Of a DNA stretch of 64,000 bases, positions 2,304 through 41,743 are shown piece by piece. Position numbers and translations under genes: made by a program. The stretch lies in NCBI GenBank assembly GCA_000002445.1, contig CP000069.1, positions 768,001-832,000 on the forward strand, written 5' to 3'. Within the stretch, counting starts at the first letter, position 1. Each line of letters opens with the position of its first letter. The notes under the pieces are model-generated. The model worked only from the letters and a program-made list of their open reading frames with translations, was not told where the DNA came from and did not search any database. This stretch comes from Trypanosoma brucei. Its lineage: Eukaryota.

Positions 2304-3263
2304 ATGATTCCGTCACAACTGAAGAGCATGACAACATTCACTAATGAGGGACGGGTAAAGCCTCCTATGAGCTACAGAGCAAATATTGATGTTTTGCCGC
2401 AGCACATTGTTACCAAATACTTTATCTTGGAAAAGGATAAGGAGACGACAGATTGGTTAAAAGAAGCTGCGAATGTTAGCGCATTAAGGATCTTAATAGC
2501 CAACCTGCTTCGCCATTTTGTTTCGCTCACTACCGCCAATGGAATTGTGGGAAGAGGCGGCATGTTTGTTGTGTCTACCGAACAGGCTGCGAACTTGCTG
2601 CTCGGAAGGACAATTGCTCAGCAATGGACGCGCTACAGGGACACGATGGAGCCGCCTTTCGAAACATTACTTGATGTTGGCGCTGGTGATGGAGGTGTTA
2701 CTTCTCGATTGCAGCCTCTCTTTAAGCGAGTGACTGCTACAGAATTTTCTATACCAATGCGCTGGCGTCTTTGGCGGCGTGGTTATGAGGTGCTTCCATA
2801 TCAGGACCCCTTCACAAATAAAGACGGCTCGAGGCGGTATTATGACGTAATTTCTTGTCTCAATGTTCTCGATCGCGCAGACAGGCCCCTTGACCTTCTG
2901 GCGTCCATGCGCGACTCGCTGGGTCCTGAAGGTATTCTTCTTTTGGCTGTTGTATTGCCATGGTGCCCGTTTGTGGAAGACGGAAGCATTAAGAGACGAC
3001 CATCACAGATGATGCCAATGGACGGTGGCGAGTGTTGCAAAGGTGCGACGTTCGAGCAGTCATTACAATGCCTTATGGATAACGTTTTGGTACCGTTTGG
3101 TTTTCAGTTGGAGCGGTGGTGTAAACTACCTTACCTTTGTGAGGGTAATATGATTGCTGAATATGCCGTGCTTCATGATGCTGTTATGGTGCTAACAAGG
3201 AAGGGAGACAGTGGTACTGCAACTGCGGAAAAAGATACAGATGGTAGTACTATCCATACTTGA
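2304..3263 (+). CDS. METTL9/DREV-family SAM-dependent methyltransferase (protein-histidine N-methyltransferase-like)
   Basis: ATG ORF of 319 aa. Motif I reads [12 protein letters not shown]. There are long collinear matches to human METTL9: [20 protein letters not shown] against [20 protein letters not shown], and [23 protein letters not shown] against [23 protein letters not shown]. The comparison is from memory of METTL9, not from a search. Confidence 0.85.
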   Translation: [319 protein letters not shown]

Positions 3264-3665: not shown

Positions 3666-5933
3666 ATGAGCGCACCACCACCGCCACCACCACAACCATC
3701 TGGAGGATTTCCCCCGTCATATGCACCGCCTGCTCCTCCAGGCTTTAAAGCACCCCCGATGCCGCCTGGTTTTAAAGCACCTCCGATGCCACCCGGTTTC
3801 AAAATGCCCCCCAGACCGCCAATGCCGCCAGGATTCAAAATGCCTCCCGGTGGGCCGCGTCCACCGGGACCGCCAATGCCACCACATGCTCAACAGGGAT
3901 CATATCCAAATTACCCAACTCCTCCCGGAGCGCCTCCGATGCCACCCGGCGGTCGTTATGCCCCCGCACCGCCGCGACCCCCAAGTGGAGGATCGGATCA
4001 AGAAAATGGACAGGGTTATATGATGCATTCGGGCGCCGTGCACGGACAATATGACGCGTATGCACGAGAGGACTACAATTACGGAGTGCCTCCGGGTCCC
4101 GATTCACGCGGGTATTCGTCATATCATCCCTCACAACAATACCACCAGGGATACTATGGAGCTCCTGCTGCGCACGGTGGCGAAAATCGTGGCAACCGCC
4201 GTGATGAAGAGGCCCGTGAACCGACCAACACCGTGTGGGTGGGGAACCTGGACGTCCAGAGGCATTCGGATGACTTTCTGAGGCAAGAGTTTCGGGAATT
4301 TGGAAGGGTTGTACGCATTGCTAAGGTGCCTGACAAGAGTTATTGTTTTGTGCATTTCCGCTATGTGGAGGAGGCGCGTAACGCCGTTGAGACGCTTAGT
4401 GCGAGGGGCTCATTGGGTGGAGCAAGGTTTAGCTACGGCAAGATGTTTGACTACTCGCAGGATGAAGGGGGCATGCAGCAGGATGGAGGCATGTCAAATC
4501 AAGGAATGCGACCACCTCGACGTCCCCGTGAGGAGGAACGTCACGAACATGAAGAGCGCCGCCGGCGCCCTCGTCGCGATGAGGAACCGATGGAGCCGAC
4601 TAATGTGTTGTGGATTGGGGACCTTCCCCCAACTATTACAAATGAGGAGCTGAATGAGAATTTCAAGGTCTTTGGAACAATTTTAAATATTTCGAGATTA
4701 GACTGTAAGAATATGGCATTTATTCACTTCGAAAATATTGAAAGCTGTACGCAGGCTCTAGACTTAATGCGTGATCAGCTCATTTGTGGCGCCCGTGTTG
4801 CGCTTAATTACGGTCGAGCGCAACGCAATCCTGTCTCCCAGACGACCGGACTCTCACCAGATGGCATCCCACTTAGTGAAACCCCGACAAATGTAATATT
4901 CGTTGGGCAGTTTGCAACAGATGTGACAGAGGAGGATATAGAAGCTTTGTTTGAGCCTTTTGAAGGGTTCATCAATTCCAAGTTTATCCACTCCAGCTGC
5001 ATCGCCTTCGGACATTTCGATACAGTAGATCACGCCCGCGCCGCTCGTGTGGCATTGAACAACACTCTTTTAAAAGGGGCTCCTGCGCGCATTAGTTTCG
5101 GTAAGACAAATCACACACTTACCATGGCTGACCGCATGCGCCGGGGAAGACCAGCACCTCTTGTGGATGGAGTTGAGGTCATCCCTGAGACCGCTGCAGG
5201 TGCGCCGGGCCGTGGCTCGCTTGATGGCGTTAGCGGTGCACTTGTCGCAGGTCCTGGTTTGAGTGGTGCGTCGGAAAATGGAGCAGTGGTGATGATCCCT
5301 GCAATGGGTGCGGCTGTCACTGCCACCTCGCCCCCGCAAGCTCATGCTTCTTTTACGCGTGAGAGACCTGCTCCCGACATGACTTTAGATGCTCGGTTAC
5401 AATCACTTCTAGGTGCCACGTATAATTCCTGCGGAGAGGCGGAGAAGTCGTTAAGTCCGAGTGTTATTCAAACTATATGTGATTTGATCGATGACTGCGT
5501 GGATGAAGGTAGTGAGAAGCGACTGGATGACGCTATCTTTTTATACACTCCACTTAATTCGGCTCATGTGTTCGGCATTCTAGCCAAACGGATGCAAAGT
5601 TTTTTTAACGACGATCCTCACAAGAAACTTTACATTGCGTACGCAGCTACTCGCGTATTGTTGGCAGCGAAAACGGACTACGTTTTCTTTACCAAGGCTG
5701 CCATGAATGCCTACCTTATGGTATTATTTGTAACCAGTCAAGGACAAACACCTGATGGGATGGAGCAACTTGTCGCCATAATTGAAAGTGTGCGTCGACA
5801 CCCCTTCATTGAGAAACAGCGATTGGATGCCGAATATACGGAAATTTTCCGCGGCCAATTGGAGGAAATCCTCGGACGTGCAAAGGAAGAACAGGACCTG
5901 ACGTCTCTCATCACAAAGAAGAGGCGTCGGTAA
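3666..5933 (+). CDS. RNA-binding protein with a Pro-rich N-terminus, three RRM domains and a C-terminal helical domain
   Basis: ATG ORF of 755 aa. The N-terminus has imperfect PPMPPGFK(A/M)P repeats. There are three RNP-type segments: TNTVWVGNLD...YCFVHF, TNVLWIGDLPP...MAFIHF and TNVIFVGQFA...CIAFGHF. The roughly 200 aa C-terminal domain is of unknown type. Confidence 0.8.
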   Translation: MSAPPPPPPQPSGGFPPSYAPPAPPGFKAPPMPPGFKAPPMPPGFKMPPRPPMPPGFKMPPGGPRPPGPPMPPHAQQGSYPNYPTPPGAPPMPPGGRYAPAPPRPPSGGSDQENGQGYMMHSGAVHGQYDAYAREDYNYGVPPGPDSRGYSSYHPSQQYHQGYYGAPAAHGGENRGNRRDEEAREPTNTVWVGNLDVQRHSDDFLRQEFREFGRVVRIAKVPDKSYCFVHFRYVEEARNAVETLSARGSLGGARFSYGKMFDYSQDEGGMQQDGGMSNQGMRPPRRPREEERHEHEERRRRPRRDEEPMEPTNVLWIGDLPPTITNEELNENFKVFGTILNISRLDCKNMAFIHFENIESCTQALDLMRDQLICGARVALNYGRAQRNPVSQTTGLSPDGIPLSETPTNVIFVGQFATDVTEEDIEALFEPFEGFINSKFIHSSCIAFGHFDTVDHARAARVALNNTLLKGAPARISFGKTNHTLTMADRMRRGRPAPLVDGVEVIPETAAGAPGRGSLDGVSGALVAGPGLSGASENGAVVMIPAMGAAVTATSPPQAHASFTRERPAPDMTLDARLQSLLGATYNSCGEAEKSLSPSVIQTICDLIDDCVDEGSEKRLDDAIFLYTPLNSAHVFGILAKRMQSFFNDDPHKKLYIAYAATRVLLAAKTDYVFFTKAAMNAYLMVLFVTSQGQTPDGMEQLVAIIESVRRHPFIEKQRLDAEYTEIFRGQLEEILGRAKEEQDLTSLITKKRRR
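3736..3860 (+). repeat. In-frame imperfect tandem repeats of about 27-36 nt encoding PPMPPGFK(A/M)P in the RRM-protein gene
   Basis: gcacccccgatgccgcctggttttaaa / gcacctccgatgccacccggtttcaaa / atgccccccagaccgccaatgccgccaggattcaaa. On the opposite strand the same region produces a spurious poly-Gly ORF (3629-3838). Confidence 0.8.
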
Positions 5934-6083: not shown

Positions 6084-7698
6084 AACCGAGTGAACAAGAA
6101 TGACGCTGAAGGTATGTGTGTTAGGCGTGTAAAAAGAGTTGATTAGTGAAGAGATAAATTTTTTTAAAAAAGGGAAAATACATACGAAAGAAAGAAAGGA
6201 AGGAAACAAAAAAAAACAAAAAAAGCTGAATGCATGAAGAATGGTATTAAATAAAGATAACGCTTACTAGGAAAACACTTTGACGGAAACTGGGGAGAAT
6301 CGGATACTGAGGAAAAGAAAATGGTGAGCGCAGGTATTGCGTTTGGGAAGGACATCACAAAAAAAGTATGATGACGTGAGTACACTGCGACTGCCGCAAC
6401 GAAGCAGTAAAGTATGTTAAGTGCGGCGATGTTTTCTTTTTCTTTTTCCTTCCGATTATTTTGCGTGAGTTTACTGTACTCTATATATCTAATCCTGTGG
6501 TGCTGCTGTTGTTTTCACGTTGTGTTCTTGTTTTGTCTTTTCTGACGCGCAGACGAACCCTATTGGCAGTAAGGATGGCAAGGCGTGTTGGCGGGTGAAG
6601 ATTTCAAAAAAATAAAATAAAATAATAACAATAATGATTGAATTTTACCATGAAAATACGACACGGTGTGAATGAAGTAGAGAGGAGAATATATTATAAG
6701 TTTGTTCAGGCTATGATTTGTTTTTTTTCTCTTTAATCGTCATTATTACTATGGTATTTGTAAGCAATAAACGTAAGTGTGTTCGTGCGTCTGTTGCAAT
6801 CACACTCTCTGATCAAATATCTTCTGTTCTTTTTTTTTTCCCCCTCACTGGCTTTCCTTCCCATCTCGGCCTTCTTTGTTTTCTTGTGTGGTGTTGCTTA
6901 CCAGCATGCAAACAAATAATAATAATAATGATAACAATAATAATGTTGCGATTACTGACATGTAAACCTGCATACATACAAAAAATACAAAACAAGAAAC
7001 ACATACACATCAAACTAAATTATTTATGATATAAACCAACGTAAAACAAAATATTCAATGAATAACTACATAAATATACTTCTAATATATATATATATAT
7101 GTATAAGCTGTCTCTAGGTTGCCTTCGTTTACACCCTCTTACAGCTCGCGTGTGGATTCGTTTCCTTTGCCTTGTTGATTTGATATCTACTCTGTTAGTA
7201 TTTGCTCCGGTGTCTCTGTGTGCCTGTCTCGCTTCAACAACAACAACAAAATATATCCACATCTTCAGGAACATACCCGCATCTTCTCGTGCACGTGAAT
7301 ATTATTTATGATTGAACACTTGTATTTGCACCTACAAATGCATGTACATTTACATATATTATCGGTCAACTGGGTGCTGTTGCGGTGATGTTCGATGAGA
7401 GTTTTTGAGTAGAGTCGCACTAAAAAAAAAATGCACGGATTTCTCTTCTCTCGCTCATGCTTGATTCCTTCTCATCATTAACTGGCTGCGTTCTTTCCTT
7501 CATTCCTTCATATATTCAGTGTTGATTGGCCATTGTTTTTCTTTGTGGTTCCCGTACCTGATGCCTGGGGGTGGATCATCATTACCAGTTGTGTAATTAC
7601 AGGTGTGTTTTCAATTTCGTCATGCACTGAAGCCCGGATTTACTTTTTGCTGAAGGGTACGAAATATCCTTATGTGGTGTCTACGCTCGCTAAAACTA

Positions 7699-7773
7699 AA
7701 AAAAAAAGAAAGGAAGGAAGGAAGGAAGGAAGGAAGGAAGGAGGAGGAAAAGAAAAAAAAAGAGGAATAAACA
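7699..7773. repeat. Polypurine tract containing (GGAA)7
   Basis: AAAAAAAAAGAAAGGAAGGAAGGAAGGAAGGAAGGAAGGAGGAGGAAAAGAAAAAAAAAGAGG. The + strand is pure purine for about 75 nt. Confidence 0.9.
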
Positions 7774-8294
7774 GCAACGGCGGAGGATCCAGAAAAAATT
7801 GTTTTGGGACATGACGAGCAAATGTGGTGCGCGGACGTTCATTTCTGAGGGAACTTATTGGATTTTTGTGCCGCATGAGTTACGTTAAGGCGTGTGTTGG
7901 ATGGGGAGATGCTTTTCAGTTCCTGGAGTTTACCGGTGGCGAATTCTAAAAGAGACTCGTCGGTTGTAGCATTTGGACATAGGTAATGCAGTTGTCATGT
8001 AACTTCATGCCTTCTCATTACCCATTTAAAAAAAAAATGAATGAGAATAAACAATGTTTTCCGGAAGCTGAAGAAAAAGAGTGGAGGGGTAAAGTGGGTA
8101 ACTGGAAGTCAAAAGCAACGTGTTTAGTGAGTTTTTTTTTTGTGGTAGTGGTGGTGGATTATTTCATCAGTTGCAAGACCGTCGCTGTTATTTTTGTGGT
8201 TTGAAAATTTCTCGTTCCGTTATTTGAAACTTCATGTGATGGTTTGGGAAACTGCTCCTCTTCCTGTAGGTGATAATTATTCTTTTAATTTTCC

Positions 8295-8345
8295 TTTTTT
8301 TTTTCTTTTTTTTTTGGGGGGGGGGGAGGGGGACGAGGAGAGGCT
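8295..8345. repeat. T-tract (about 21 nt) directly abutting a G11 homopolymer and a GGGGG run
   Basis: TTTTTTTTTTCTTTTTTTTTTTGGGGGGGGGGGAGGGGGACGAGGAG. Confidence 0.9.
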
Positions 8346-10364
8346 TGGTTTGCCAAGTGTATGTGTGCACTAAACAATATTTGCGCTGCATTTAATGATT
8401 GAAGAAGTTGAGAAATGCGGTTAATTTGCAAAGAAAGAGTGAGGGAAAGGGGAGATTGTTTTTTTTTTGTGAATCTTCACAATGGGGGACACGACCTCGT
8501 TTCTTTTTTTTTTTTTGTGCTGGTTTGAGGTTTATGGTTCGTCGACATTTTAAATATATATATATATATATATGTATTCTCCTTGTGCTGAACGCTTTGA
8601 CTAATTTTTCTTTGGTTTTTTAAAAACCATGTGAGTCTTACGGACTCCAATCTGCTTTACCTCTTGTTACTTGAGGCGCCTTTGTATGACATTGTTGGAA
8701 CTATATAAATATATATATATTTATGATTTTTTTTTTTTGTAGAGTCAATGGTTTTCGTTTCTGATAATTGATTTTGGTGGAAGGGCATAATAATCAAAGA
8801 GATGTCCGTGGAATTTGAAGAAGTACAAAAAGATAACCCGGTTAGTCAAGTGTTGTACGACCGTTCCCGTTTTATGCTCTGAGGCTTTTTGTTCTAAAAG
8901 GAACTAAAAAAATAACAATAATAATATAACAATAATCAGAAGCGTACGCAACCTTAACGAATGTTCCACCGACGTGCTTCGCTGAGTATTTTTATACATT
9001 TGTGAATGCACGTGTAGTGGAGGATGGGGAGGGGGTTTAATACTTCAATTCCGTTTCCCCCTTTGTTTGGTGAAGGTGCAGCGCCGTAAAATTATAAATA
9101 CTTTCTAGGGTTAAAATGGTATTATAACTTCCCTTTATTAATCCTGAGAGTGTATTGTAAGAATATCATCTGCCGCTAATGGATCCCTGTAATTCTATGA
9201 TTGTTCGCTAAGCCTGTAATTGCATTGGACAAGTAAAAACAGGATTGTGTACACAAACCGTCTAGTTGTGTTACTTTATTAAAGGGATCTATATTTTTTC
9301 CCCTTGAAAACCAGCGTTATGAACGTTTTACGACTTAGGATTACATAGTGTTAATTATGTACGGATTGCCCTATATAAACACACTTTCTTCCCCAATATT
9401 ATACAGCTATCTGCAAGGTGGTGTAGGTGTGTTAGAAAAAAGTACGTTTTAAGATATCAAAGATGTTGATGCATACATGATTAATCTTCTCTGAGGTAGA
9501 GTGGGTAACAAATATCAGGACATTTATGGAATTTGTTTGTAAAAAGGGGCTGACGCCTTTTTCTTTCGACTTTCGGCCAGCACTGAACCCGAGAACTGCA
9601 TGCCATGCGGATGATATGTTGACAACCGATGTTGAAAACCCTAATAGTGTTTACTTTGACAGAGAACGTAAAATGGATCTGGGATCGCTGAGGCAATTGA
9701 TGGTAAGTTTTGTGTTGCCTAGAAACTCAGATTTCTTAAAAGCTTTTTTAAGTGGCGGGAGAAGCACTGCGTGCGGAATGAGCTGCGTTAGAAGCCGGAG
9801 AATGAGCACTTTATTATCGGTTTGAAAGTGCATGTGCACAACTCTCCGACGAGAATGTTCGAGTGCAGCACGAATCAAATGAGCATCTGGGTTGGATGCA
9901 ACAACAGCTCACATATATGCAAGAAACAAAAGCACAGCAAGCAGCGGAAATTGGAGGTCTACGTACAATCGATTTCTACGATACGGCAAAAATTGGTCAT
10001 AACTGAAGGTAAGAGAGATAAGACAGGGGAGTGTCAGGAACAACAGAGCAAATCGGAAACAGGGAAGGCCAAACATATAGATGAATGTGCATGGAAAGGC
10101 TGTTTCTCATCGTAAGAAGTAACTTAACCTTTTTCACATAGGGTTTGATTTCGAGGGATCCAGGAATTACGGGCAAATGCATTGGGCTTTCCTGGAGGAG
10201 TAAGCACTGAAGAAAAAATTCGAACTTTTGATGGAATGATGAAATATCTCCAAGGAAGGACTCCTGAATAACTGTTATCAGCATATCAGTTAGTGTTTCC
10301 CACGCCAACAATATCGCCGGGACAGGTATATACCGAGGCATAAAAAAACTTCGCATCATAGGTA

Positions 10365-10700
10365 TTGCGCCTGCACCAAGACGGCATATCGAAGGAACGC
10401 CTCCAACTAGGAAAACAATTGTATGATAAGCTGTGCACAGTACAAACGGTAAAAGACTACCCGGGGCTGAGGTTTAAAGACATAAAGGAAACTATCGAAT
10501 TCCATCTCAAAAAGGGTGATATTTACATTCAGGCCACTATGAAGGCGAGACGACAACAACAACAACAAATCGGTGTCCCTCCGAGAAGGTCTCAATGTTT
10601 CACATGCGGACAATTGGGGCATTACAGCAATACTTGTGGGGTGTTCAAACATAAACTGAACACACGTCAAAAAAGAGACATTCGGCCCCAGAAGCAATGA
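10365..10700 (+). pseudogene. gag-like fragment with a CCHC zinc knuckle, part of the retroelement
   Basis: The 111 aa ORF ends ...RRSQCFTCGQLGHYSNTCGVFKHK. This is a C-X2-C-X4-H-X4-C knuckle preceded by a basic, Q-rich segment. Confidence 0.5.
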
Positions 10701-12109
10701 ATTTGGGGGCCGTTAATATTTCCCTACCCATACTCCACCACAAGGGAAAAACTAACACAACGGAGAAAGAGTCATACAGTGGAGGACGATAACAATTACC
10801 ACCCCTCGTCGACAAATGAGTTACCCGACACGGACGGGAATAGTACGACCCTTACGCGCAGAAAAGTCGACAGCAGCTCAACGTATGAGAGGAGCCTTTC
10901 AAGGGATCTGGGAAATGTCAAATGGAAATCAACAACACGCAACAAAGGTGTTCTTGGTAAACGACGTCACGGTTATTCTAGCTTCTGCACACGATACGTA
11001 TATTATGGCACTGGCTTCAGAAGCAAACAAAGTAGCAAAAAGGATGTGAACACGCACAACTTGGGAACAGAAAGGACCCATAATCTAAGGATTCTATGCT
11101 TTCGCAGACAAACACGGACTACCGGCTGTCGAAACGACAATCCCCTTGTTTATTGTAAGTTTGCAACTGGCAAAGAGCAGCACCATACAGTATACAAGGA
11201 CACTACTATCATCACTAGCCGCAGAGCATACACCAGCGCGAATGTATTTGTAGCCGGACTATGCAGAATGACAGGGGGAAATACCATAAAACAGGCTTGA
11301 CCCATGTTGCGTTGGGAGCTCGATCTCGCGTGTGACACTTTAACACTAGAGCGGGATCGAGTGGCTTTAAAGCTGACCTGAATCGCAGCCAGCAGATGGG
11401 GAGAAATAGCACAGCTACAAAAGGAGAATTTTGTGCTCCATCCACAAGACAAAAAAGATGATGCCATAGTGGTAAACTGAGGAGCACTCCCGAAGATATT
11501 CAAAAGCGACACACACAGAACCGCGAAGTATGTGGTGATAAGCGGAGAAGATGCAAGAAGGATCCGAAGGGTAATCAGGGAAATGGAGGGTAATGAAAAG
11601 CTCACATCTATTACAACAAAAGGAATGAAAGAAATACTACGCTCACTCGGGATGACTGCACATTCAATAAAGAGAGGGAAATTAGCACACGTAGAATTGG
11701 CATGAGTGGTGTAAAAACACAAGCCCTCGACTTAAGATTATTAACACAATTAGGAAAGCACGCAGACCCTCAGAAGCTTTCACGAAGTACGGTAAGACGC
11801 TATCTGTGTCGATGGAACACCACCATCAACAAGTCGGAGCGGTTAACCACGTTGATGTAAAACATCTGATAGGGAGAAAAGCAGATATGCCATGCAATAT
11901 GCCGGAATCCTCACGCCGAGCAGTGTTAGCTTTATTGACAAGAAAAAATTATCGAGGGCACATCATCATTCGACGTTCGCAAGGAACGCGGGCAGTGTCA
12001 GATGAAGAAGAGAGACATTACTTCTTCAGGAAGTAAATGTGGGTACATTGTCTTTGGAATTGGTACGAAGACGAATGTAGGATGAGGCACAGCAACGGTT
12101 TGACAATGT

Positions 12110-13400
12110 ATGGAACTTGATGATTGCCACGGAACGAAATTCGAAAGAAAGAGACAGGGAGTCTCATTTGCGGATTGCGGAAAAAGACGCCGATTTATTG
12201 CCTGGTCCAAGGTAAAAAATGCCAGAAATGATTACGAGGTTGGAGTCCTGTTGGGACACATATCCCTATATCTAAGTGCAGTTTATGATGAATCCGCAGG
12301 GTTGTTTGATTTAAAGGCTTCTTTTTTTCCGGATGAACAAGCCACAAAAGACATTCGAGCGAGTTTCCGCTGTTGCACAGAAAAGTGGGGAACTGGTAGA
12401 ATTGAATCGATTCCCAATGGGTTAATAAATGAAGCCATGAAATTGTACAGACATCACGAGAGTTTTGGCAGGAGACTCAGAGGTAGTGAAACCACAATAT
12501 GCGGCCGCCAACGAATCGAGGGTTCACACGTAGATCGATAACATCCGTATCAGTAAACCACACAAAACGGTCAAAGAATGGGGGGACCACATTGCTAAAA
12601 ACATGAAAGAATGCGGGGCAACGGTTGCCGAGCAACAAAAAATGGTCACACGATACGAATTTATCGGGGTTTTATTTGACCATGACAAACAGACGGTTTT
12701 GTTGAATGCAAAGACAACACGGCGGATTCGAGAATCGGCTCCACTCGAGACAACGACCATAAAACAGATGGAGAGAGTTGTATTCTGCATGATATACGCG
12801 GCTGGTATTGGGGGGGGGAGCCATTTTTCTCTTACTATATTTTCTTTAAAATGATGCGTCGGCGTTTATCTCGCCTAAATAGGAAATTGGTGAACCATTC
12901 CGATCGGGATTAGCTGCCAAAAAATGCATTAAAGTTGGCGAAGCAGTGGATGAGCGAGTTGTTGAAAAATGTAGCAGTGGTTCCACCACAGGTTCATCCC
13001 TCCACGGCCACACTGGTGACAGATACCTCCGTGCAGGGATGGGGAGGGATGTTATTTCGAGATAAAGGAGAGATTATAATAGCAGGAGGCTCCTGGGAAA
13101 CGGCACCTCACATGATATCATAAGGAGAAGTGCGAGCGATTCAATTCGCATTGTTAGCGATTCGGGGGCGTTTCGATGGGCCATTGCAAATATACGTGGA
13201 TAACACCACCGTAATGCATATTATGAAGGAAGACGACGCGCATTCAAGCGCCCTAGTGCGATAGGCATCTGTAAAAAACAGGATATTACGACAGGAACAG
13301 ATAAATGCCACATGGTGTTACGTACATTCAGGGGTAAATCCAACCGATGGGATGTCTCGAGGGATACCTGTCAGGGGACAGGACTTGGCGATGGGGTGGA
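12110..13400 (+). pseudogene. Frameshifted RT/RNase H pol remnant of the retroelement
   Basis: The RT C-terminal 'EFIGVLFD...K..ai...P' segment lies in ORF 12603-12854. The RNase H motif TDTSVQGWGG is in ORF 12935-13123. The terminal HSGVNPTDGMSRG motif sits about 13.32 kb in another frame, after a stop. Several frame changes and stops separate these pieces. Confidence 0.5.
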
Positions 13401-13782
13401 ACATGTGGAGGAGAGCGCGGGAGGAGGTTTTAAAGACGCTTTCAGCTCTTTCATATCGTTAGTAAATTATCGTTCATAAATCGTATTTGCGTGGGATGAG
13501 GATGAAGGAACACAACCGGGCATTTAAGGATAAATAATTATTTTTTATATCTTTCTTATCGGTAATAAAGGGAAGGTAATGCCTAAACTATTCCTCTTTT
13601 TACTTTCTTATGTCTTTCTTCTCTCCAAAATATACATTTTTTAATCTAAAGGAAAAAGGGGAAGGGGAACGTGTCGGGTTTATCGTAAGCGGTTTTGAAT
13701 TCTGATCACTAGCTGTTGGTAAGAGTTCGGAAAGGGAAACTTGAATTGTTTTTTATTACATTAAAGTGAAGGCCCACGGTCG

Positions 13783-23264: not shown

Positions 23265-23691
23265 AGTGAATTTAGTACATGAGTTGTTTAAGGCCCCTAC
23301 AAACATTTCGGTCATTTACGCATTGCCCCCATTGAGGGGTCACGCGACGTCAGTCTGTGAGGGGACGCGGCTGCCACTGTGAACTTATTGTACCGAGAGT
23401 TACCCGTCGCAAGCCAATTTTACAATGGGGAATACGATAGGGGGGAGAAGTGTGCGCAAAAAAGTAGAGATGTGGAACGTACGTCGGTGGATGAGCGGCA
23501 TGTGACTTCCCTCTTTCCTTGTAAAAGTGGTGTAAAACGGAGGATCGTACATCAGTGTCCGCATGCACCGCGATGCTTCTCTCGCGTTAGTCTTTTCACG
23601 TTGTAGGGCATCATTATAGTGCAGAAAAAGGTTGCTGAGCGTTGTGGTCTAGCGAGCCGTACTTGCGATTTGTAAAGAAAAACAACAACTA

Positions 23692-25011
23692 ATGTGGTTC
23701 AGCCGCTTTTCGCTATCGCTGGCAAGCACAGATGCTGGTGAGAAGTTACTGCGGAGCATTCGTGGCCGCGACATTACTTTGCGAGTCTCCACAAAGGACG
23801 GTAACGCACGCATCGTTTTTGCATCCACCACCAATTTACTCCGTGAAACGATGCGGCGACACAAACTGCTAACGCGAATGAAGGGTCAAACACCTTTCCT
23901 TGAGCTGGTTGGTACGCATTTAACCTTTACAAATATACTAGCTGCACTGCAGGAGGGCGAGGAACGCGTCGCTACACGTCTGAGTGCGAATGAGGGGACA
24001 ATTGTGACTGAGTCGCTTGCTATCGGTGAGTGCCGGTGTTATGTTGGTGGTCACAACGGTACCACGCTGGAGGAAGAGCCCCACTTCCCATTGAAGGTTG
24101 ACCGCTTTCTATATGGTCAGTCCCAACCCTTTTCGTCAATTACAGCCGCGTCTTTGACGCAGCTCATAGACCGCGACTATAACGCAACGGTTAGCTCCTC
24201 CGAGGGCTTTTGTAGTACCGCGCAAACTCCGGAAACAGCGGTGCCCCTGCTGGGTCTTGGAATGTTGTCACCAGAGGTTGTGGATGCTTATTATCGTAGG
24301 AATATCACACTGCATGGCCACACTTTTTTTCGTCAATCGGAGGGTTCGGTAGCGGCATTGTGGTGCTGTGCGTATCTCGACGACCCTTCGCTCCTGGAGG
24401 CGTTTGCTTTGTACTCGGAAGCGAGTGCCGCAAGCGAAAGCCCTGAGGCAGTCGATCGAGTTGACGAGATGATGCGTAAGACGGCTTGCTCATGCGGTGT
24501 TCTTGTTCAGCCGGTTGTGGCCGGGCGCGTGGTGGAAGAAAAAATTCATCTGCTACAACGCCTACTGGTCCGTGCATCGATCGTGCAACCTGAAATATTT
24601 AGCGTTCTGAAGGAAAGGGGGGTGCATGAAGGTTTAGCTTGTCAAGACTCAATCGCATTGGTTACAGGCGACCACGAAGGCGCTTATGAGGTAGCCAAAG
24701 CGGCGCGCCAATTTACACAAGATCCGTCCGTTTCAGCCCCAGTGGTTGAGAAAGTGCGAGAGGGATTGGGTTTGGATAAGGGCGAGCGTTTCTTTATCGA
24801 TCAAGCGTCTGTAGTGCGAAACGGAATTGATTATTTTTGTCGATGTTCCAAAAATAATTTTCTACGGGCGCTTGTGGCGCTCCCTGAGGAGCAGCTTTCG
24901 TCTCTTATGGAAGAAACTAGCTTTCGCTGTACGTTTTGCGCGAAAGAGCATGTGCTGCAACCCGAAGATTGGAGCAAACTGTTGCGCGACCGTACTTCCT
25001 TTAAAAAATAA
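23692..25011 (+). CDS. Hsp33-family redox-regulated chaperone (HslO-like)
   Basis: ATG ORF of 439 aa. The C-terminus YFCRCSKNNFLRALVALPEEQLSSLMEETSFRCTFCAKEHVL is collinear with the E. coli Hsp33 zinc centre [43 protein letters not shown], so CxC...CxxC is preserved. An extra N-terminal segment is present. Confidence 0.8.
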   Translation: MWFSRFSLSLASTDAGEKLLRSIRGRDITLRVSTKDGNARIVFASTTNLLRETMRRHKLLTRMKGQTPFLELVGTHLTFTNILAALQEGEERVATRLSANEGTIVTESLAIGECRCYVGGHNGTTLEEEPHFPLKVDRFLYGQSQPFSSITAASLTQLIDRDYNATVSSSEGFCSTAQTPETAVPLLGLGMLSPEVVDAYYRRNITLHGHTFFRQSEGSVAALWCCAYLDDPSLLEAFALYSEASAASESPEAVDRVDEMMRKTACSCGVLVQPVVAGRVVEEKIHLLQRLLVRASIVQPEIFSVLKERGVHEGLACQDSIALVTGDHEGAYEVAKAARQFTQDPSVSAPVVEKVREGLGLDKGERFFIDQASVVRNGIDYFCRCSKNNFLRALVALPEEQLSSLMEETSFRCTFCAKEHVLQPEDWSKLLRDRTSFKK

Positions 25012-25567: not shown

Positions 25568-27169
25568 ATGTTCAGTGGTCAGAATGAGAAACCGAAAGGG
25601 GCGAAACAAACCCCTTCGGTTCGAGGGGGTGCGGAGCGCCGGCAGCGGCAGATGATTAACATTCGACAGAAGGCCCACGGTGAGCTCATTAAACACATCC
25701 GCGAGGAAGAAGTAGCAATGGAAGGAGTTGATGGGCCCACGGTACCAGACCCCGGAAACGTTTGGTCGTACGATCAAAGAACCCGTCCCGATGACGTTCC
25801 GGTTCAGCTACTTCCCCAGTTCGTTCAGATGGTTATGAACGGCCCAACAGATAGAGAGGTATACCACGGGACACTGATGGTTCGCAAGTTACTTTCGGTG
25901 GAGAGGTCTCCCCCGCATGAAATGGTCGCCCAAAGTGGTGTCATTCCGCACCTTGTGAGCTTCCTGGACCGTGCAGATAACCCGGAACTGCAATTTGAAG
26001 CGGCTTGGGCATTGACGAATGTTGCTGCTGGCACATCCGCGAACACTATGATCCTCGTTGAGGTTGGGGCTATTCCGCGCTTTATCAACTTGCTCAGTTC
26101 ACCTAGTCCTGACTGTCGTGACCAGGGTGCATGGGCTATTGGCAATATGGCCGGTGATGGTGTTGCCACCCGAGATATTGCATTGCAACATAATGCTATT
26201 CCTGCTTTTGTCAACCTTATTTCAGACCCCGATCAACCTCTATCCATCGTTCGCAATGCAACGTGGGCTATATCCAACTTGTGCCGTGGGAAGCCTGCTC
26301 CCCCGCTGCATTATTTGCTACCCACGCTACCTGCTTTAGCCAATTTACTTTTTCACAGGGATCTGGAGATCGCCACAGATGCGTCATGGGCGATTTCGTA
26401 CGTTAGCGATGGTCCACACGAGCGCGTACAAGCGGTGTTGGATACTGGTGTTGTTCCCCGCGTTATAGAACTCCTCGCGGCAACGTCAATTCCGCTTCAA
26501 ACGTCATGCATCCGAACCATTGGCAACATCGCGAGTGGCAATGATGCACAAACACAAGTGATTATTAACTGTGGCGTATTGGAAAAGCTTGCTCCCCTTG
26601 TCACACACCGCAAGCGGGAGATTCGCAAGGAAACATGCTGGACTATCTCCAATATTGCCGCCGGCAATTCAGAGCAAATCGACGCACTCATCAAATCAGA
26701 TCTCTTTCCATTGGTTATCAAATGTCTCCAAGGTACGGAACTGGATGTGAAGAAGGAGGCCGTGTGGTCTATCGCCAACGTAACTCTCTGCGGAGTTTCC
26801 CCACATTTGTATTATCTTTTGGACTGCGGTGTCATCCCTCCGTTATGTGATGTCTTGAACACGCATGATCCCAAAACTCTTACAGTTGCCCTCGAAGCTC
26901 TCATGGGATTTCTGCAGGTGGGCGAAGACAGAGTTAAAACAGGAGAAGTACAGGAGAACCCCGTGGCGCGTGCCATCATTGAGTGCGGTGGTGTGGATGC
27001 CATTGAGCGTGCGCAATCCTCCACAGACTCCAGCATATACAGCATTGCACTTTGTCTCCTCGAGACATTCTTTAACGTGGAAGAGGAGGGAGCACCTCAG
27101 CAGTTTGAGTTGGGGATGGATCATGGAGATCCAAATGGACAACCACCACAAGGCCAGTTCGATCTTTGA
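25568..27169 (+). CDS. Importin subunit alpha (karyopherin alpha)
   Basis: ATG ORF of 533 aa. There is an N-terminal IBB-like basic segment RRQRQMINIRQKAHGELIKHIREEE. Tandem armadillo repeats carry the W..N/T-NIASG signatures: EAAWALTNVAAGT, GAWAIGNMAGD, ATWAISNLCRG, CIRTIGNIASGN, TCWTISNIAAGN, AVWSIANVT. Confidence 0.9.
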   Translation: MFSGQNEKPKGAKQTPSVRGGAERRQRQMINIRQKAHGELIKHIREEEVAMEGVDGPTVPDPGNVWSYDQRTRPDDVPVQLLPQFVQMVMNGPTDREVYHGTLMVRKLLSVERSPPHEMVAQSGVIPHLVSFLDRADNPELQFEAAWALTNVAAGTSANTMILVEVGAIPRFINLLSSPSPDCRDQGAWAIGNMAGDGVATRDIALQHNAIPAFVNLISDPDQPLSIVRNATWAISNLCRGKPAPPLHYLLPTLPALANLLFHRDLEIATDASWAISYVSDGPHERVQAVLDTGVVPRVIELLAATSIPLQTSCIRTIGNIASGNDAQTQVIINCGVLEKLAPLVTHRKREIRKETCWTISNIAAGNSEQIDALIKSDLFPLVIKCLQGTELDVKKEAVWSIANVTLCGVSPHLYYLLDCGVIPPLCDVLNTHDPKTLTVALEALMGFLQVGEDRVKTGEVQENPVARAIIECGGVDAIERAQSSTDSSIYSIALCLLETFFNVEEEGAPQQFELGMDHGDPNGQPPQGQFDL

Positions 27170-36312: not shown

Positions 36313-37197
36313 ATGCCAAACGAAACCGCGGGTAAGCCTCCTAAGGTTTTCCAAACTAATGGAAAATTACCACGTGGCAGTGACCCCACATGTGATGATG
36401 TGGAGTTCACCCATGAAGGCGAGGTGGTAGTGACTTCTTCCGACGGGAAGAAGTTTCGCCGTAGTGTTTGTGTCTTCATCATGAACGAAAACGGCCATTT
36501 CCTGGGATGTCGGCGGTACGATGATCGCAGCACAATACAGTGTGTTCAAGGTGGTGCGAAGAGGGGTGAAACGGTTCAACAAACTGCGACTCGTGAAGTA
36601 ATGGAAGAGATCGGGGTGCACTGCGACCAACTTCAGTTCATTAGTGAGATCACCTACTCGAAACCTGAGTGTGGCGAACCCCAGAACTGTGACGGACCAC
36701 GTTCTGCCTTTCGCTACAAATCTAAATCATGGAGACGTATCGGAATTGTGGGTCAGGAACTGTATCCCCTTCTCTATAGTATGCAGTCGTCTGTCATAAA
36801 CCATTTGAACTTCCATTCCGTTCCGGGCACCAGACGGGAATTCATCGGGGCAGAGTGGGTTCCACTTCATGTTTTGCGCAATAAATGCTCAAAGTCGAAG
36901 CAGGTGGCGGTATCCAATATGTGTGACGCTGTCGAAGAAATTTTGTGGGGGCAATCACGATCTCCACGCCGTGATTCACACTCTGCTGATGCCGGCAGGT
37001 TGAATGAGTTGAAGAAGGACATTGGAAGCAGCTCACAGCACGAACTTGGGGACACGATGAATGACATGGTAAATAGTTGTCAGCGGAAACGACGGCGTAA
37101 GAGAAAAGGGAAGAGTGGGAATAAGAATCAATTGTTACATGAGGAGGGAGGTTCCCTTCAGATGAATTTACTTGGAAACCCCACCTCCTGCGAGTGA
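36313..37197 (+). CDS. NUDIX hydrolase
   Basis: ATG ORF of 294 aa. The Nudix box is GGAKRGETVQQTATREVMEEIGV (GX5EX7REUXEEXGU). The C-terminus has a basic NLS-like tail QRKRRRKRKGKSGNK. Confidence 0.75.
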   Translation: MPNETAGKPPKVFQTNGKLPRGSDPTCDDVEFTHEGEVVVTSSDGKKFRRSVCVFIMNENGHFLGCRRYDDRSTIQCVQGGAKRGETVQQTATREVMEEIGVHCDQLQFISEITYSKPECGEPQNCDGPRSAFRYKSKSWRRIGIVGQELYPLLYSMQSSVINHLNFHSVPGTRREFIGAEWVPLHVLRNKCSKSKQVAVSNMCDAVEEILWGQSRSPRRDSHSADAGRLNELKKDIGSSSQHELGDTMNDMVNSCQRKRRRKRKGKSGNKNQLLHEEGGSLQMNLLGNPTSCE

Positions 37198-39700: not shown

Positions 39701-41743
39701 ATGTCGAAAACAATTTGCAAATGTTGTGTGGTGTGGAAACCCAGCGAGTTTTTAGAAGCCGCTGCCAGGCGTTGTATGAAACCTCAAGATGTAGCATCGG
39801 ATCAAAAAAAGCTGTTCTGTGCGATGCGCAGCGTTGCCGATGGAATTGGTTATGCAGGGAGTGCTGAAGCTGCTGCGGATTTAGGAAGCATCAAATCATG
39901 TGATAATGATCCGCAACTTTGGATGTGTCTTCGCTGTGGGTTATATTGCTGTGGAGTGCACCGAAAGTCGCATTATGACAACTCGAGAATGTCTGGTGTT
40001 GGCACAGACGATAAAATAAATGGGGGCCACCGTATCTTTTTTGCCGTGAAACCGAGATGGGGGACGGATGTGAACTCACCTGCCGTTGGTGCACCGTTGC
40101 CGACAGTTACGATAAACTTGTGTCAAGTCGAATCACCTGAGAGGCGTACCGTAACGATGAATAACTTGAAGGTTTCAAAGGTTTCATTTGAAAAGGTAGG
40201 GACGTATGGCATTATATCGTGTGTGGAATGCCATGAAGACCCGATCAAGTTGCCTGTGCGGAACAGCTTACCATGTTTAGGGGTTGACTTGATAACTCTT
40301 TGCGAAAATGTAGCGAAGGTGTTACACTGCGTCGAGAGAAACATTTCTTTGGCTCCTGATTACGACGAAGGCTCGTTCGGGGCTCCCCGTGCTCGCGGCG
40401 TACTGGATTCAGGAATTGCAACAGACACGAGGCGTCAAAACAGCAACTATGAAACGTATTCTTATGTGGAGACGAATAAGCAGGCCAACTCACGTGCAGC
40501 AACCTCTTCTAACAGTCGTTGCGTGAGAGCACGGGCGGGCACACTAGTGGAGGCTTGTATCTCCGGCTTTGAAAATCGGCGCAACACATGTTATTTCAAC
40601 TCCGTTCTCCAATGTATTCTTCAATGCAATACCTTTATTGATTTTATGATCCGTCAAAAATTCACCGGTTCACACACGTTGGTGCATCATATGTCCGAAA
40701 TGATAGGGTTTATGAAGAGCGGCCCGTGCGCAGGTGATAGACAAGGTATCGTGGATGGCCTTGCCCGTGCTTTGATGGGCAGTTTATCTGAAATTGTTCC
40801 AATGTTTGGTGACGGGGATCAACAGGACAGTCAGGAACTCTTCATTACGCTGATCAATGGTATCGCTGATGAGTTAGATAAGGGTAAAAGTGAAGAAGAA
40901 AAGAAAGGGAGTCAACGTGTCCCTTTCGAAGGTATGCTCTGTACTACAGTAACATGCAGAGGGTGTAAAAACCAAGTCAAACGGGATGAAGTGTTCATGG
41001 CGCTTTCAATACCCGTTACGAACAGCGTTGAAGATAGCCTTGAAAAACTTTTCGAAAGATCGACACTTAACGGGGATTCTCAGTACGCCTGTGAAGTGTG
41101 CTTTAACAAACTATCTCCTGCGGAGCAAACGAAGAAAAACAACGATATTCGTGCGGAGAACGAGGCACGGAAGCTCAGGAAGAAAGCAAATGCGGAAGCA
41201 AAGAGTCTCAACTGTCTCTACCAAGACGCAGACGTGGAAACATCAATCGGGAGATTTAATGGATCACTCGCGTTACACTTACTACGGTTCAAGTGCGACG
41301 ACCGTGGCGTATACAAAGTTCCTGGCGCAGTTTCTTTCCCAAAAAGACTGAACCTTAGTAAGTATATAGTGGGCAGTGCGGCAAGCGGATGTGGGGACAC
41401 GAAAATGCCGCAAACGATCGTCCAAACAAATGTGAACACACATCGTAGTGTTTCCCGACCCAGCAATTCGCTGGTACATGTTTCCGGTGGCGATGGCTGT
41501 ACGAGTAGCGTGGAGGAGAGTACTGACAACCGACGGAGTCAGTTGGACTTGGAGCTCGTCGGCATAATCTCGCATGTTGGTTCACTTCACGGTGGGCATT
41601 ATGTTGCTCATGTACGGAGCCATACCAAACCATCCATGTGGTTCTACTGCGACGATGAAGAAATTTATACTGTGGATGAATCAAGTGTGTTTGAACGCGA
41701 GCAGGGTGTATATATGCTCTTCTACGACCAGCTTTACCATTAA
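39701..41743 (+). CDS. Ubiquitin carboxyl-terminal hydrolase (USP/UBP family) with an N-terminal ZnF-UBP domain
   Basis: ATG ORF of 680 aa. It has a ZnF-UBP-like segment CLRCGLYCCGVHRKSHYDNS, the Cys box GFENRRNTCYFNSVLQCILQCNTF, and the His box GGHYVAHVRS...WFYCDDEEI...YMLFYD. Confidence 0.85.
   Translation: MSKTICKCCVVWKPSEFLEAAARRCMKPQDVASDQKKLFCAMRSVADGIGYAGSAEAAADLGSIKSCDNDPQLWMCLRCGLYCCGVHRKSHYDNSRMSGVGTDDKINGGHRIFFAVKPRWGTDVNSPAVGAPLPTVTINLCQVESPERRTVTMNNLKVSKVSFEKVGTYGIISCVECHEDPIKLPVRNSLPCLGVDLITLCENVAKVLHCVERNISLAPDYDEGSFGAPRARGVLDSGIATDTRRQNSNYETYSYVETNKQANSRAATSSNSRCVRARAGTLVEACISGFENRRNTCYFNSVLQCILQCNTFIDFMIRQKFTGSHTLVHHMSEMIGFMKSGPCAGDRQGIVDGLARALMGSLSEIVPMFGDGDQQDSQELFITLINGIADELDKGKSEEEKKGSQRVPFEGMLCTTVTCRGCKNQVKRDEVFMALSIPVTNSVEDSLEKLFERSTLNGDSQYACEVCFNKLSPAEQTKKNNDIRAENEARKLRKKANAEAKSLNCLYQDADVETSIGRFNGSLALHLLRFKCDDRGVYKVPGAVSFPKRLNLSKYIVGSAASGCGDTKMPQTIVQTNVNTHRSVSRPSNSLVHVSGGDGCTSSVEESTDNRRSQLDLELVGIISHVGSLHGGHYVAHVRSHTKPSMWFYCDDEEIYTVDESSVFEREQGVYMLFYDQLYH

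What the first reader, a model, noticed from the sequence alone, without database searches (positions are those of the whole stretch)
23692..25011. Bacterial-type redox chaperone Hsp33 with an intact CXC...CXXC zinc switch and an N-terminal extension
The last 50 residues align motif for motif with the E. coli Hsp33 zinc domain: CRC...ALVALPEEQLSSLM...CTFC against CTC...[14 protein letters not shown]...CDYC. All four thiolate ligands of the redox switch are conserved. Hsp33 is essentially a prokaryotic protein. In eukaryotes it is confined to a few lineages: kinetoplastids, algae and some oomycetes. The extra N-terminal sequence, MWFSRFSLSLASTDAGEKLLRSIRGRD, may be an organelle-targeting signal. 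That would place an oxidative-stress-activated holdase in the mitochondrion.
Basis: partly seen in the sequence, partly recalled or inferred. Interest (0 to 1): 0.5.

Follow-up and report, generated by a model that had tools for sequence, protein, structure and literature searches.

The report
Known trypanosome Hsp33 chaperone gene (TrypOx)

Summary
The ORF at 23692..25011 (+, 439 aa) is real. It is 100% identical to a T. brucei TREU927 protein, and its 48.676 kDa mass matches the published entry for Tb927.6.2630 (TrypOx; Aramin et al. 2020, PMC7423844).

It is a full-length Hsp33:
- Pfam PF01430 scores 51.7 bits against a cut-off of 21.4.
- A profile of bacterial-length Hsp33s matches the N-domain (residues 20-171, 59 bits) and the zinc domain (373-434, 55 bits).
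- A confident AlphaFold model (pLDDT 91.6) matches only Hsp33 structures.
- All four zinc-binding cysteines (C383, C385, C413, C416) are invariant in orthologues.

The N-terminal extension exists but is only about 16-19 residues, not 27.

Mitochondrial targeting is plausible but unproven.
- For: the protein is listed in a published T. brucei mitochondrial proteome, the Diplonema homologue is in the mitochondrial proteome, and every full-length orthologue but one has a basic extension.
- Against: published TargetP and MitoFates calls are negative, and it is absent from the ATOM40 importome.

The gene goes back at least to the common ancestor of kinetoplastids and diplonemids. Verdict: already known, low interest.

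The parts
23692..25011 (+). Complete coding sequence of TrypOx / Tb927.6.2630 (439 aa plus stop), the T. brucei Hsp33 orthologue
   Evidence: ORF list. 100% identical to a T. brucei TREU927 protein. Calculated mass of 48.676 kDa equals the value listed for Tb927.6.2630 / Q583S1. Pfam PF01430 scores 51.7 bits.
23692..23748 (+). N-terminal extension, residues 1-19 (MWFSRFSLSLASTDAGEKL), a candidate short mitochondrial presequence
   Evidence: Not matched by the bacterial Hsp33 profile, whose match starts at residue 20. Residues 2-16 lie in alignment columns occupied by under 40% of homologues. AlphaFold pLDDT is about 52 for residues 1-10. The extension is present in all orthologues except the annotated L. 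donovani start, and its sequence is poorly conserved, with net charge +2 to +6. The targeting function is inferred, not shown.
23749..24153 (+). Hsp33 N-terminal core domain, first part (residues 20-154), with the conserved motifs R-D, RH, GEERV and GE-R
   Evidence: Local HMM of 31 bacterial-length Hsp33s: residues 20-171 score 59.4 bits, E = 1.6e-20. phmmer aligns residues 30-120 with B. subtilis Hsp33 1vzy residues 5-91. Nearly invariant residues are D27, R40, E90, E91, R92, E107, G112, E113 and R115.
24154..24294 (+). Insertion 1 (residues 155-201), specific to kinetoplastids and partly low-confidence or disordered
   Evidence: These columns are occupied by under 40% of 129 homologues. The segment is present in trypanosomatids and Bodo and absent in Diplonema and bacteria. 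pLDDT is 52-58 for residues 161-180 and 76 for 181-190.
24391..24474 (+). Insertion 2 (residues 234-261), specific to trypanosomatids and modelled as helical
   Evidence: Column occupancy analysis, alignment, and helices 232-245 and 251-264 at pLDDT of about 87-97.
24661..24783 (+). Expanded linker segment (residues 324-364, TGDHEGAYEVAKAARQFTQDP...). Its GD...A...AR core is shared with Bodo and two unnamed relatives and partly with Diplonema (GD only), and is absent from bacterial-length Hsp33
   Evidence: Alignment A3. G326, D327, A335, A338, R339, Q340, D344 and P345 are invariant in trypanosomatids. Helices are modelled at pLDDT above 95. Residues 344-364 lie in low-occupancy columns.
24808..24993 (+). 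C-terminal zinc-binding redox-switch domain (residues 373-434)
   Evidence: Local HMM gives 55.4 bits, E = 2.7e-19. The domain aligns with the E. coli Hsp33 C-terminal domain 1xjh. Published chimera experiments show this domain confers redox-regulated activity on E. coli Hsp33 (PMC7423844).
24838..24846 (+). Codons for C383-R384-C385 (the CxC pair of zinc ligands)
   Evidence: Invariant in 82 aligned homologues. Positions confirmed.
24928..24939 (+). Codons for C413-T-F-C416 (the CxxC pair of zinc ligands)
   Evidence: Invariant in 82 aligned homologues. Positions confirmed.
23576..23606 (+). Pyrimidine-rich tract ending in AG, a likely trans-splice acceptor region for this mRNA. No ATG lies between it and the start codon
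   Evidence: Read directly from the sequence. This is an inference from the general trypanosomatid gene layout and was not verified with RNA data.

Best explanation
This is the Trypanosoma brucei Hsp33 orthologue TrypOx (Tb927.6.2630).

It most likely works like bacterial Hsp33. In reducing conditions, four cysteine thiolates (C383, C385, C413, C416) hold a zinc ion. The zinc keeps the small C-terminal domain folded, and the linker stays packed over the N-terminal beta-sheet platform. Oxidants convert the thiolates to disulfides and release the zinc. The C-terminal domain and linker then unfold, and the exposed surface binds unfolding proteins without using ATP. After re-reduction, the clients pass to an Hsp70/Hsp40 system.

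Compared with bacteria, the protein has a short N-terminal extension of about 16-19 residues and about 125-150 extra residues in three or four internal insertions. Most of the inserted residues are predicted to be folded helices.

The extension is probably a short trypanosomatid-type mitochondrial presequence, which would place the chaperone in the mitochondrion. I put that step at about 0.6.

Shown: identity, homology across both domains, and the fold. The literature adds the RNAi phenotype and a working redox-switch domain in an E. coli chimera.

Inferred: zinc binding and holdase activity of the native full-length protein, and its location.
For: Identity:
- 100% identical to a T. brucei TREU927 protein.
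- Calculated mass 48.676 kDa equals the listed value for Tb927.6.2630.
- The DREV methyltransferase gene at 2304..3263 corresponds to Tb927.6.2540, listed just before Tb927.6.2630 in the published table.

Family:
- PF01430 scores 51.7 bits against a cut-off of 21.4.
- Both domains score independently against a bacterial-length profile.
- The AlphaFold model has pLDDT 91.6 and pTM 0.92.
- That model matches only Hsp33 structures: 1vzy at E = 2e-14 and 1vq0 at TM 0.74.
- All four Cys are invariant in 82 homologues.

Function, from PMC7423844:
- RNAi sensitises procyclic cells to mild H2O2.
- The TrypOx C-terminal domain replaces the E. coli one, giving redox-dependent holdase activity and transfer to DnaK/J.

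Location:
- The protein is in the mitochondrial reference set through the Panigrahi/Mach proteomes.
- It falls to 0.71-fold (p = 0.009) in whole cells after ATOM40 RNAi.
- The Diplonema Hsp33 is in the mitochondrial proteome and predicted mitochondrial by several tools.
- Orthologues start with MRR-type basic extensions.
Against: - Full-length TrypOx could not be purified in soluble form, so its own chaperone activity and zinc content were never measured (PMC7423844).
- It scores only 55 bits against the NCBIfam HslO equivalog model, whose cut-off is 244. The middle third (residues 172-372) does not align with the bacterial profile.
- On location, the published TargetP 1.1 and MitoFates columns are empty for this protein, and it is not flagged in the ATOM40-dependent importome.
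- The T. brucei extension has only one basic residue in its first 17 positions, plus acidic residues at 14 and 17.
- I found no imaging data. The TrypTag and hyperLOPIT supplements held here have no entry for it.
Confidence: 0.85

Rival explanations
1. TrypOx is a cytosolic Hsp33. On this reading, the N-terminal tail is just a lineage-specific appendage or part of the fold, not a targeting signal. The protein would guard the cytosolic proteome and hand clients to cytosolic Hsp70/Hsp40.
For: - No TargetP or MitoFates prediction, and absence from the ATOM40 importome.
- The T. brucei tail is weakly basic and contains D14 and E17.
- Residues 13-24 are modelled as a helix at pLDDT of about 85, possibly packed on the domain.
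- Knock-down changed many non-mitochondrial redox proteins (PMC7423844).
Against: - The protein was detected in purified-mitochondria proteomes and declines after ATOM40 knock-down.
- The Diplonema homologue is mitochondrial.
- Orthologues carry clearer MRR-type presequence-like tails whose sequence drifts while the positive charge is kept.
Confidence: 0.3
2. The protein keeps the Hsp33 fold and the redox switch, but the large structured insertions have repurposed it. It might be a redox-controlled scaffold or a specific partner-binding protein, and it would no longer be a general holdase.
For: - Some 125-150 extra residues are inserted in and around the linker, mostly modelled as well-packed helices.
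- Extra cysteines are conserved in trypanosomatids: C114 and C116 in most, and C317 in all.
- Full-length holdase activity was never shown.
Against: - The conserved N-domain motifs of Hsp33 are retained.
- The C-terminal domain regulates a bacterial holdase core correctly (PMC7423844).
- The RNAi phenotype, peroxide sensitivity, is the classic Hsp33 phenotype.
Confidence: 0.1
3. The gene is a recent horizontal transfer from bacteria into trypanosomes.
For: Hsp33 is mainly bacterial. The closest bacterial-length sequences are from the Bacteroidota, Ignavibacteria, Kapabacteria and Chlorobiota group.
Against: - Orthologues occur in all trypanosomatids sampled, in Bodo saltans and in two diplonemids.
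- These form one group apart from 25 bacterial-length sequences and 5 other eukaryote-associated sequences in 95% of 200 neighbour-joining bootstraps.
- Identity to bacterial sequences is only 20-25%.
- The gene lies in a normal polycistronic unit with no change in composition.
Confidence: 0.03

Closest known systems
TrypOx (Tb927.6.2630), Aramin et al. 2020, Front Microbiol 11:1844 (PMC7423844)
   Same: It is the same gene, with the protein sequence and mass identical. That paper already reports the Hsp33 homology, the four conserved cysteines, an extra segment of about 100-150 residues, the RNAi peroxide sensitivity and a working redox-switch domain.
   Different: Nothing differs in the sequence. 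This analysis adds several points:
- The extra residues fall into several separate insertions.
- Most of them are predicted to be folded.
- One is shared with Bodo and, in part, Diplonema.
- The N-terminal extension and the subcellular location, which that paper did not address, are examined here.
Bacterial Hsp33 / HslO (E. coli; B. subtilis PDB 1vzy; T. maritima PDB 1vq0)
   Same: - It has the same two-domain fold (TM 0.71-0.74 normalised to the bacterial chain).
- It keeps the same N-domain motifs.
- It has the same CxC...CxxC zinc centre.
- The C-terminal domain is functionally interchangeable with that of E. coli, according to the literature.
   Different: - The protein is 439 residues against about 290.
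- It has an N-terminal extension.
- Insertions sit at residues 155-201, 234-261 and 324-364.
- Sequence identity is only about 20-25%.
- It is far below the NCBIfam equivalog cut-off.
- It has three fewer residues between the two Cys pairs than E. coli.
Diplonema papillatum mitochondrial Hsp33 (DIPPA_04306, PMC12699882). P0047 / KAJ9459599.1 is assumed but not verified to be this protein
   Same: - P0047 belongs to the same Euglenozoa-wide group (95% bootstrap).
- It has a presequence-like N-terminus.
- It keeps the CRC...CxxC motif.
- It shares the GD start of the linker insertion.
   Different: It is shorter (341 aa) and lacks insertions 1 and 2. The Diplonema Hsp33 has direct mitochondrial-proteome support and consistent predictions, whereas the T. 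brucei protein does not.
Chlamydomonas reinhardtii Hsp33 (Segal and Shapira 2015, as cited in PMC7423844)
   Same: It is a eukaryotic Hsp33 with redox-regulated holdase activity.
   Different: The algal protein has lost one of the four cysteines and does not bind zinc, according to PMC7423844. TrypOx keeps all four.
T. brucei mitochondrial Trx2 (PMC6783113) and Leishmania mitochondrial peroxiredoxin (cited there), which are redox- or heat-regulated holdases
   Same: These are ATP-independent, stress-activated holdases in the trypanosomatid mitochondrion. They would be functional neighbours if TrypOx is mitochondrial.
   Different: The folds are unrelated (thioredoxin and peroxiredoxin). Trx2 is active when reduced, whereas Hsp33-type switches are active when oxidised.

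Membership tests
Hsp33 / HslO (Pfam PF01430) | Whole-protein score above the Pfam gathering threshold | tested here: met
   51.7 bits against a cut-off of 21.4, E = 1.1e-13, two matched stretches.
Hsp33 / HslO (Pfam PF01430) | Homologous N-terminal core (substrate-binding) domain, not just the Cys motif | tested here: met
   Residues 20-171 score 59.4 bits (E = 1.6e-20) against a profile of 31 bacterial-length Hsp33s. phmmer aligns residues 30-120 to B. subtilis 1vzy residues 5-91. The conserved motifs are retained.
Hsp33 / HslO (Pfam PF01430) | C-terminal zinc domain with four Cys as CxC...CxxC at family-typical spacing | tested here: met
   C383-x-C385-x27-C413-xx-C416. The family range is x26-x41. 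The cysteines are invariant in 82 sequences. The domain scores 55.4 bits.
Hsp33 / HslO (Pfam PF01430) | Overall Hsp33 three-dimensional fold | tested here: met
   The AlphaFold model (pLDDT 91.6) matches only Hsp33 entries in the PDB. These are 1vzy, 1vq0, 3m7m and 1i7f, with E from 2e-14 to 1.5e-4. The next hit has E = 0.36.
Hsp33 / HslO (Pfam PF01430) | Linker of about 50 residues between the core and the zinc domain that folds over the core when reduced | tested here: inconclusive
   Residues 172-372 are not aligned by the bacterial profile. The region is expanded by insertions and is modelled as packed helices. Whether it behaves as a metastable linker cannot be read from the sequence.
Hsp33 / HslO, NCBIfam equivalog NF001033 | Score above the equivalog cut-off, meaning same function as bacterial HslO | tested here: not met
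   55 bits against a cut-off of 244. This is expected for a divergent eukaryotic homologue with insertions. It argues against calling the protein an equivalog, not against family membership.
Hsp33 / HslO (functional definition) | Zinc binding plus oxidation-triggered unfolding and holdase activity | not testable with these tools
   In the literature, the TrypOx C-terminal domain works as a redox switch in an E. coli chimera. The full-length protein was insoluble, so its activity is undetermined (PMC7423844).
Proteins imported by an N-terminal mitochondrial presequence | N-terminal extension beyond the conserved mature domain | tested here: met
   The extension is about 16-19 residues in T. brucei and 23-47 in all orthologues examined except the annotated L. 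donovani entry (6 residues), and is absent from bacterial-length homologues.
Proteins imported by an N-terminal mitochondrial presequence | Basic, hydroxylated composition, few acidic residues, capacity to form an amphipathic helix | tested here: inconclusive
   In T. brucei the net charge is +2, the only basic residue in the first 17 is R5, and D14 and E17 are present. Orthologues are clearer: they begin MRR, MRW or MRT, have net charge +3 to +6, and their first acidic residue falls at positions 16-49.
Proteins imported by an N-terminal mitochondrial presequence | Positive call by dedicated predictors (TargetP, MitoFates) | tested here: not met
   No predictor could be run here. Published calls in Peikert et al. 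2017, Supplementary Data 2a, show no TargetP 1.1 mark and no MitoFates mark for Tb927.6.2630, while neighbouring rows carry them.
Proteins imported by an N-terminal mitochondrial presequence | Experimental presence in mitochondria and dependence on the import pore | tested here: inconclusive
   From the literature only. The protein is listed in the mitochondrial proteome (Panigrahi 2009 / Mach 2013). It falls to 0.71-fold in whole cells after ATOM40 RNAi, p = 0.009. It is not flagged in the importome, whose threshold was log2 <= -0.62 in purified mitochondria.

The most novel reading that the evidence does not exclude
Euglenozoan Hsp33 may be an ancestral mitochondrial holdase that was already present in the common ancestor of kinetoplastids and diplonemids. 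Related presequence-bearing copies in a heterolobosean and a dictyostelid hint at an even older origin. In this reading, the trypanosomatid version is imported through an atypical short presequence that standard predictors miss. Its structured, lineage-specific insertions, together with extra conserved cysteines (C114 and C116 in most, C317 in all), would enlarge or retune the redox-controlled lid over the client-binding surface.
Probability: 0.4. Interest if true: 0.4.

Novelty: already known. Interest (0 to 1): 0.18.

Why it matters
Hsp33 is absent from mammals, and trypanosomes need TrypOx to survive mild peroxide stress, so it has been proposed as a drug target (PMC7423844).

The question still open is where the protein acts. 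A mitochondrial location would place a third redox-regulated holdase, beside Trx2 and the mitochondrial peroxiredoxin, in the parasite's single mitochondrion. It would also change which Hsp70/Hsp40 partners and which clients to look for.

As a genome-scan finding it adds no new kind of element. It is a correctly recognised, already published gene.

Tried and rejected
- An exact-sequence look-up of the encoding contig found no record. Identity therefore rests on the 100% protein match, the identical mass and the neighbouring genes.
- The word-indexed homologue search returned only trypanosomatids, even with a profile query. The exhaustive representative search was needed to reach Bodo, diplonemids and bacteria.
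- I looked for direct localisation data and found none. The TrypTag paper supplements and the hyperLOPIT supplements have no entry for Tb927.6.2630. The sub-mitochondrial map paper is not held. The Angomonas proteomics paper has no supplements held. A search for 'TrypOx' returned mostly beetle and wasp papers.
- The genome-collection scan with the 82-sequence alignment failed because no block was conserved enough. It was repeated with 12 sequences. That result (Balneolales, Kapabacteria, Ignavibacteria, Chlorobiota) is biased by the D[FY][FY]CRCS search pattern, so I treat it only as a lead.
- Monophyly of all named eukaryotic copies against bacteria appeared in the full-data neighbour-joining tree but in only 22.5% of bootstraps. 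I make no claim about the deeper origin.
- I considered a downstream start codon and rejected it. The next Met is residue 54, which would delete two conserved strands and the invariant R26-D27.
- Rfam, tRNA and tandem-repeat scans of the window found nothing relevant to this gene.
Full report
**Observation**

It runs 23692..25011 on the + strand, starts at ATG and encodes 439 aa. An in-frame TAG lies 13 codons upstream with no other ATG between, so 23692 is the only start that keeps the conserved N-terminal part. A pyrimidine-rich tract ending in AG lies at about 23576-23606, with no ATG between it and the start codon. That fits a trypanosomatid trans-splice acceptor, though this is inferred. 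All ORFs of at least 180 aa, apart from two minus-strand ORFs (one overlapping a larger plus-strand ORF, one in the fragmented-ORF stretch), are on the + strand, as in a kinetoplastid polycistronic unit.

**Identity**

- The protein is 100% identical over its full length to 'hypothetical protein, conserved [Trypanosoma brucei brucei TREU927]', on a 1,618,915-bp contig.
- Its calculated mass is 48.676 kDa. This equals the value listed for Tb927.6.2630 / UniProt Q583S1 in Peikert et al. 2017.
- The ORF at 2304..3263 is a DREV methyltransferase. It corresponds to Tb927.6.2540, which is listed just before Tb927.6.2630 in the published table.
- Tb927.6.2630 is the gene named TrypOx by Aramin et al. 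2020 (PMC7423844).

**Is it a real, full-length Hsp33?**

That is not the case.

- Pfam PF01430 scores 51.7 bits against a gathering score of 21.4, with two matched stretches.
- phmmer against PDB sequences aligns residues 30-120 with B. subtilis Hsp33 residues 5-91, and residues 378-435 with residues 230-289.
- I built a profile from 31 bacterial-length (about 290-310 aa) homologues. It matches residues 20-171 at 59.4 bits (E = 1.6e-20) and residues 373-434 at 55.4 bits (E = 2.7e-19).
- An AlphaFold2 model built on an 82-sequence alignment is confident, with mean pLDDT 91.6 and pTM 0.92.
- Foldseek against the PDB finds only Hsp33 structures with E <= 0.001. These are 1vzy (E = 2e-14, TM 0.71 per target length), 1vq0 (TM 0.74), 3m7m and 1i7f. 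The next hit has E = 0.36.
- The quoted motif-for-motif alignment with the E. coli zinc domain (1xjh) is reproduced.
- The spacing CxC-x27-CxxC lies within the family range. All four cysteines are invariant in 82 homologues.
- One membership criterion fails. The NCBIfam HslO equivalog model gives 55 bits against a cut-off of 244. The cause is the divergent, expanded middle of the protein.

**Anatomy: how it differs from bacterial Hsp33**

Homology begins at about residue 20, and R26-D27 belong to a conserved Hsp33 N-terminal motif. About 16-19 residues are therefore extra, and pLDDT is about 52 for residues 1-10.

The larger difference is internal. Residues 155-201, 234-261 and 344-364 fall in alignment columns occupied by under 40% of 129 homologues. 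The bacterial profile cannot align residues 172-372.

| Segment | Residues | Distribution |
|---|---|---|
| Insertion 1 | 155-201 | Trypanosomatids plus Bodo |
| Insertion 2 | 234-261 | Trypanosomatids only |
| GD...A...AR linker segment | about 324-364 | Bodo and two unnamed relatives; only the GD start in Diplonema; absent in bacteria |

The distributions are read. Apart from residues 121-130 and about 161-190, these regions are modelled as well-packed helices rather than disordered linker. [quoted passage not shown] The present analysis resolves it into several insertions of different evolutionary age.

**Mechanism**

By homology and fold, the most likely mechanism is the Hsp33 zinc-thiolate switch. 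Reduced thiolates bind zinc and keep the C-terminal domain and linker folded. Oxidation releases the zinc and unfolds them, which exposes a holdase surface. After re-reduction, clients pass to Hsp70/Hsp40.

The literature provides partial experimental support:
- TrypOx RNAi sensitises procyclic cells to mild peroxide.
- The TrypOx C-terminal domain substitutes for the E. coli domain, giving redox-dependent holdase activity and client transfer to DnaK/J.

Full-length TrypOx was insoluble, so its own activity and zinc content remain unmeasured.

**Mitochondrial targeting**

Evidence for:
- Tb927.6.2630 is in the mitochondrial reference set of Peikert et al. It is there through the TriTrypDB annotation and the Panigrahi/Mach mitochondrial proteomes.
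- Its abundance drops to 0.71-fold (p = 0.009, n = 3) in whole cells after ATOM40 knock-down.
- Every full-length orthologue except the annotated L. donovani start has an extension whose sequence drifts while it stays basic. Many begin MRR, MRW or MRT, and the first acidic residue falls at positions 16-49.
- The Diplonema Hsp33 is in the experimentally derived mitochondrial proteome and is predicted mitochondrial by several tools.
- Homologues from Pharyngomonas and a dictyostelid also have presequence-like N-termini.

Evidence against:
- The published TargetP 1.1 and MitoFates columns are empty for this protein.
- It is not flagged in the ATOM40-dependent importome, defined as log2 <= -0.62 and p < 0.05 in purified mitochondria.
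- The T. brucei tail has one basic residue in its first 17 positions, plus D14 and E17.
- I could find no imaging or spatial-proteomics entry.

I put the probability of mitochondrial location at about 0.6.

**Origin**

The exhaustive profile search found 313 representatives with E <= 0.001. Named ones include:
- Bodo saltans (447 aa)
- Diplonema papillatum (341 aa)
- Rhynchopus
- Pharyngomonas
- the dictyostelid Synstelium
- Kapabacteria and Bacteroidota

I ran a neighbour-joining analysis on 294 trimmed columns of 129 sequences. Kinetoplastids including Bodo separate from 25 bacterial-length and 5 other eukaryotic sequences in 100% of 200 bootstraps. With the two diplonemids added, the figure is 95%.

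The gene therefore dates at least to the common ancestor of kinetoplastids and diplonemids, and is not a recent transfer into trypanosomes.

Monophyly of all named eukaryotic copies is unsupported, at 22.5%. The bacteria most similar in a motif-seeded genome scan are Balneolales, Kapabacteria, Ignavibacteria and Chlorobiota. That scan is biased by its search pattern, so it is only a lead.

**Verdict**

The organelle-targeting suggestion is plausible but unproven. The gene is already known and partly characterised. Novelty is 'already known' and interest is low.

Noticed in passing
window 24031-24039 (C114-R-C116), 24640-24642 (C317), 24364-24369 (C225, C226) and 24487-24495 (C266-S-C268): TrypOx has eight cysteines besides the four zinc ligands. 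Bacteria have GEvRG where most trypanosomatids have GECRC, giving a second CxC in the N-domain. C317 is invariant in the nine trypanosomatid orthologues aligned. These might add redox-sensitive sites.
   Followed up: partly
window 9500-13000, e.g. ORF 10365..10700 (+): A stretch of about 7.7 kb (about 6000-13700) has no long ORF, low GC (0.38) and a strong A-over-T skew (+0.27 at 10001-12000). It contains fragmented ORFs, one with a CCHC zinc knuckle (Pfam PF00098, 21.9 bits). This looks like a degenerate retroelement remnant.
   Followed up: partly
window 25568..27169 (+): The next gene downstream is an importin-alpha-type protein, with eight Armadillo repeats (E = 1.3e-69) and the atypical Arm_3 repeat.
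   Followed up: partly
window 3666..5933 (+), repeats at 3744-3848: This is a triple-RRM protein whose N-terminus is a proline-rich repeat (PPMPPGFK...), encoded by imperfect 27- and 36-base tandem repeats.
   Followed up: no
window 2304..3263 (+), 36313..37197 (+) and 39701..41743 (+): Other neighbours are a DREV methyltransferase (matching Tb927.6.2540), a NUDIX hydrolase and a UCH-type ubiquitin hydrolase with a zf-UBP finger. Together with the near-exclusive + strand orientation of the long ORFs, they show the window is one polycistronic unit of T. brucei chromosome 6.
   Followed up: partly
protein P0018 (1040 aa, eukprot): The best hit in the representative search is a 1040-residue protein with two stretches matching the trypanosomatid Hsp33 profile and a Cys motif near residue 961. 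It is either a fused gene model or a tandem duplication. Separately, the L. infantum Hsp33 gene lies in a gene array whose copy number varies (PMC7660250).
   Followed up: no
protein P0014 (L. donovani, 457 aa): The annotated L. donovani protein starts MHAFRTRD and lacks the 47-residue extension seen in other Leishmania entries. This is probably a difference in start-codon annotation rather than a real loss.
   Followed up: no
proteins P0064, P0100, P0088, P0062 and P0175: Hsp33 homologues, several with N-terminal extensions, occur in Pharyngomonas kirbyi (Heterolobosea), the dictyostelid Synstelium polycarpum and other protist transcriptomes.
   Followed up: partly
proteins P0027-P0054: About twenty unnamed metagenomic or Logan sequences (330-630 aa) sit between diplonemids and kinetoplastids in the tree. 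They carry intermediate insertion patterns and are probably uncultured marine euglenozoans.
   Followed up: no
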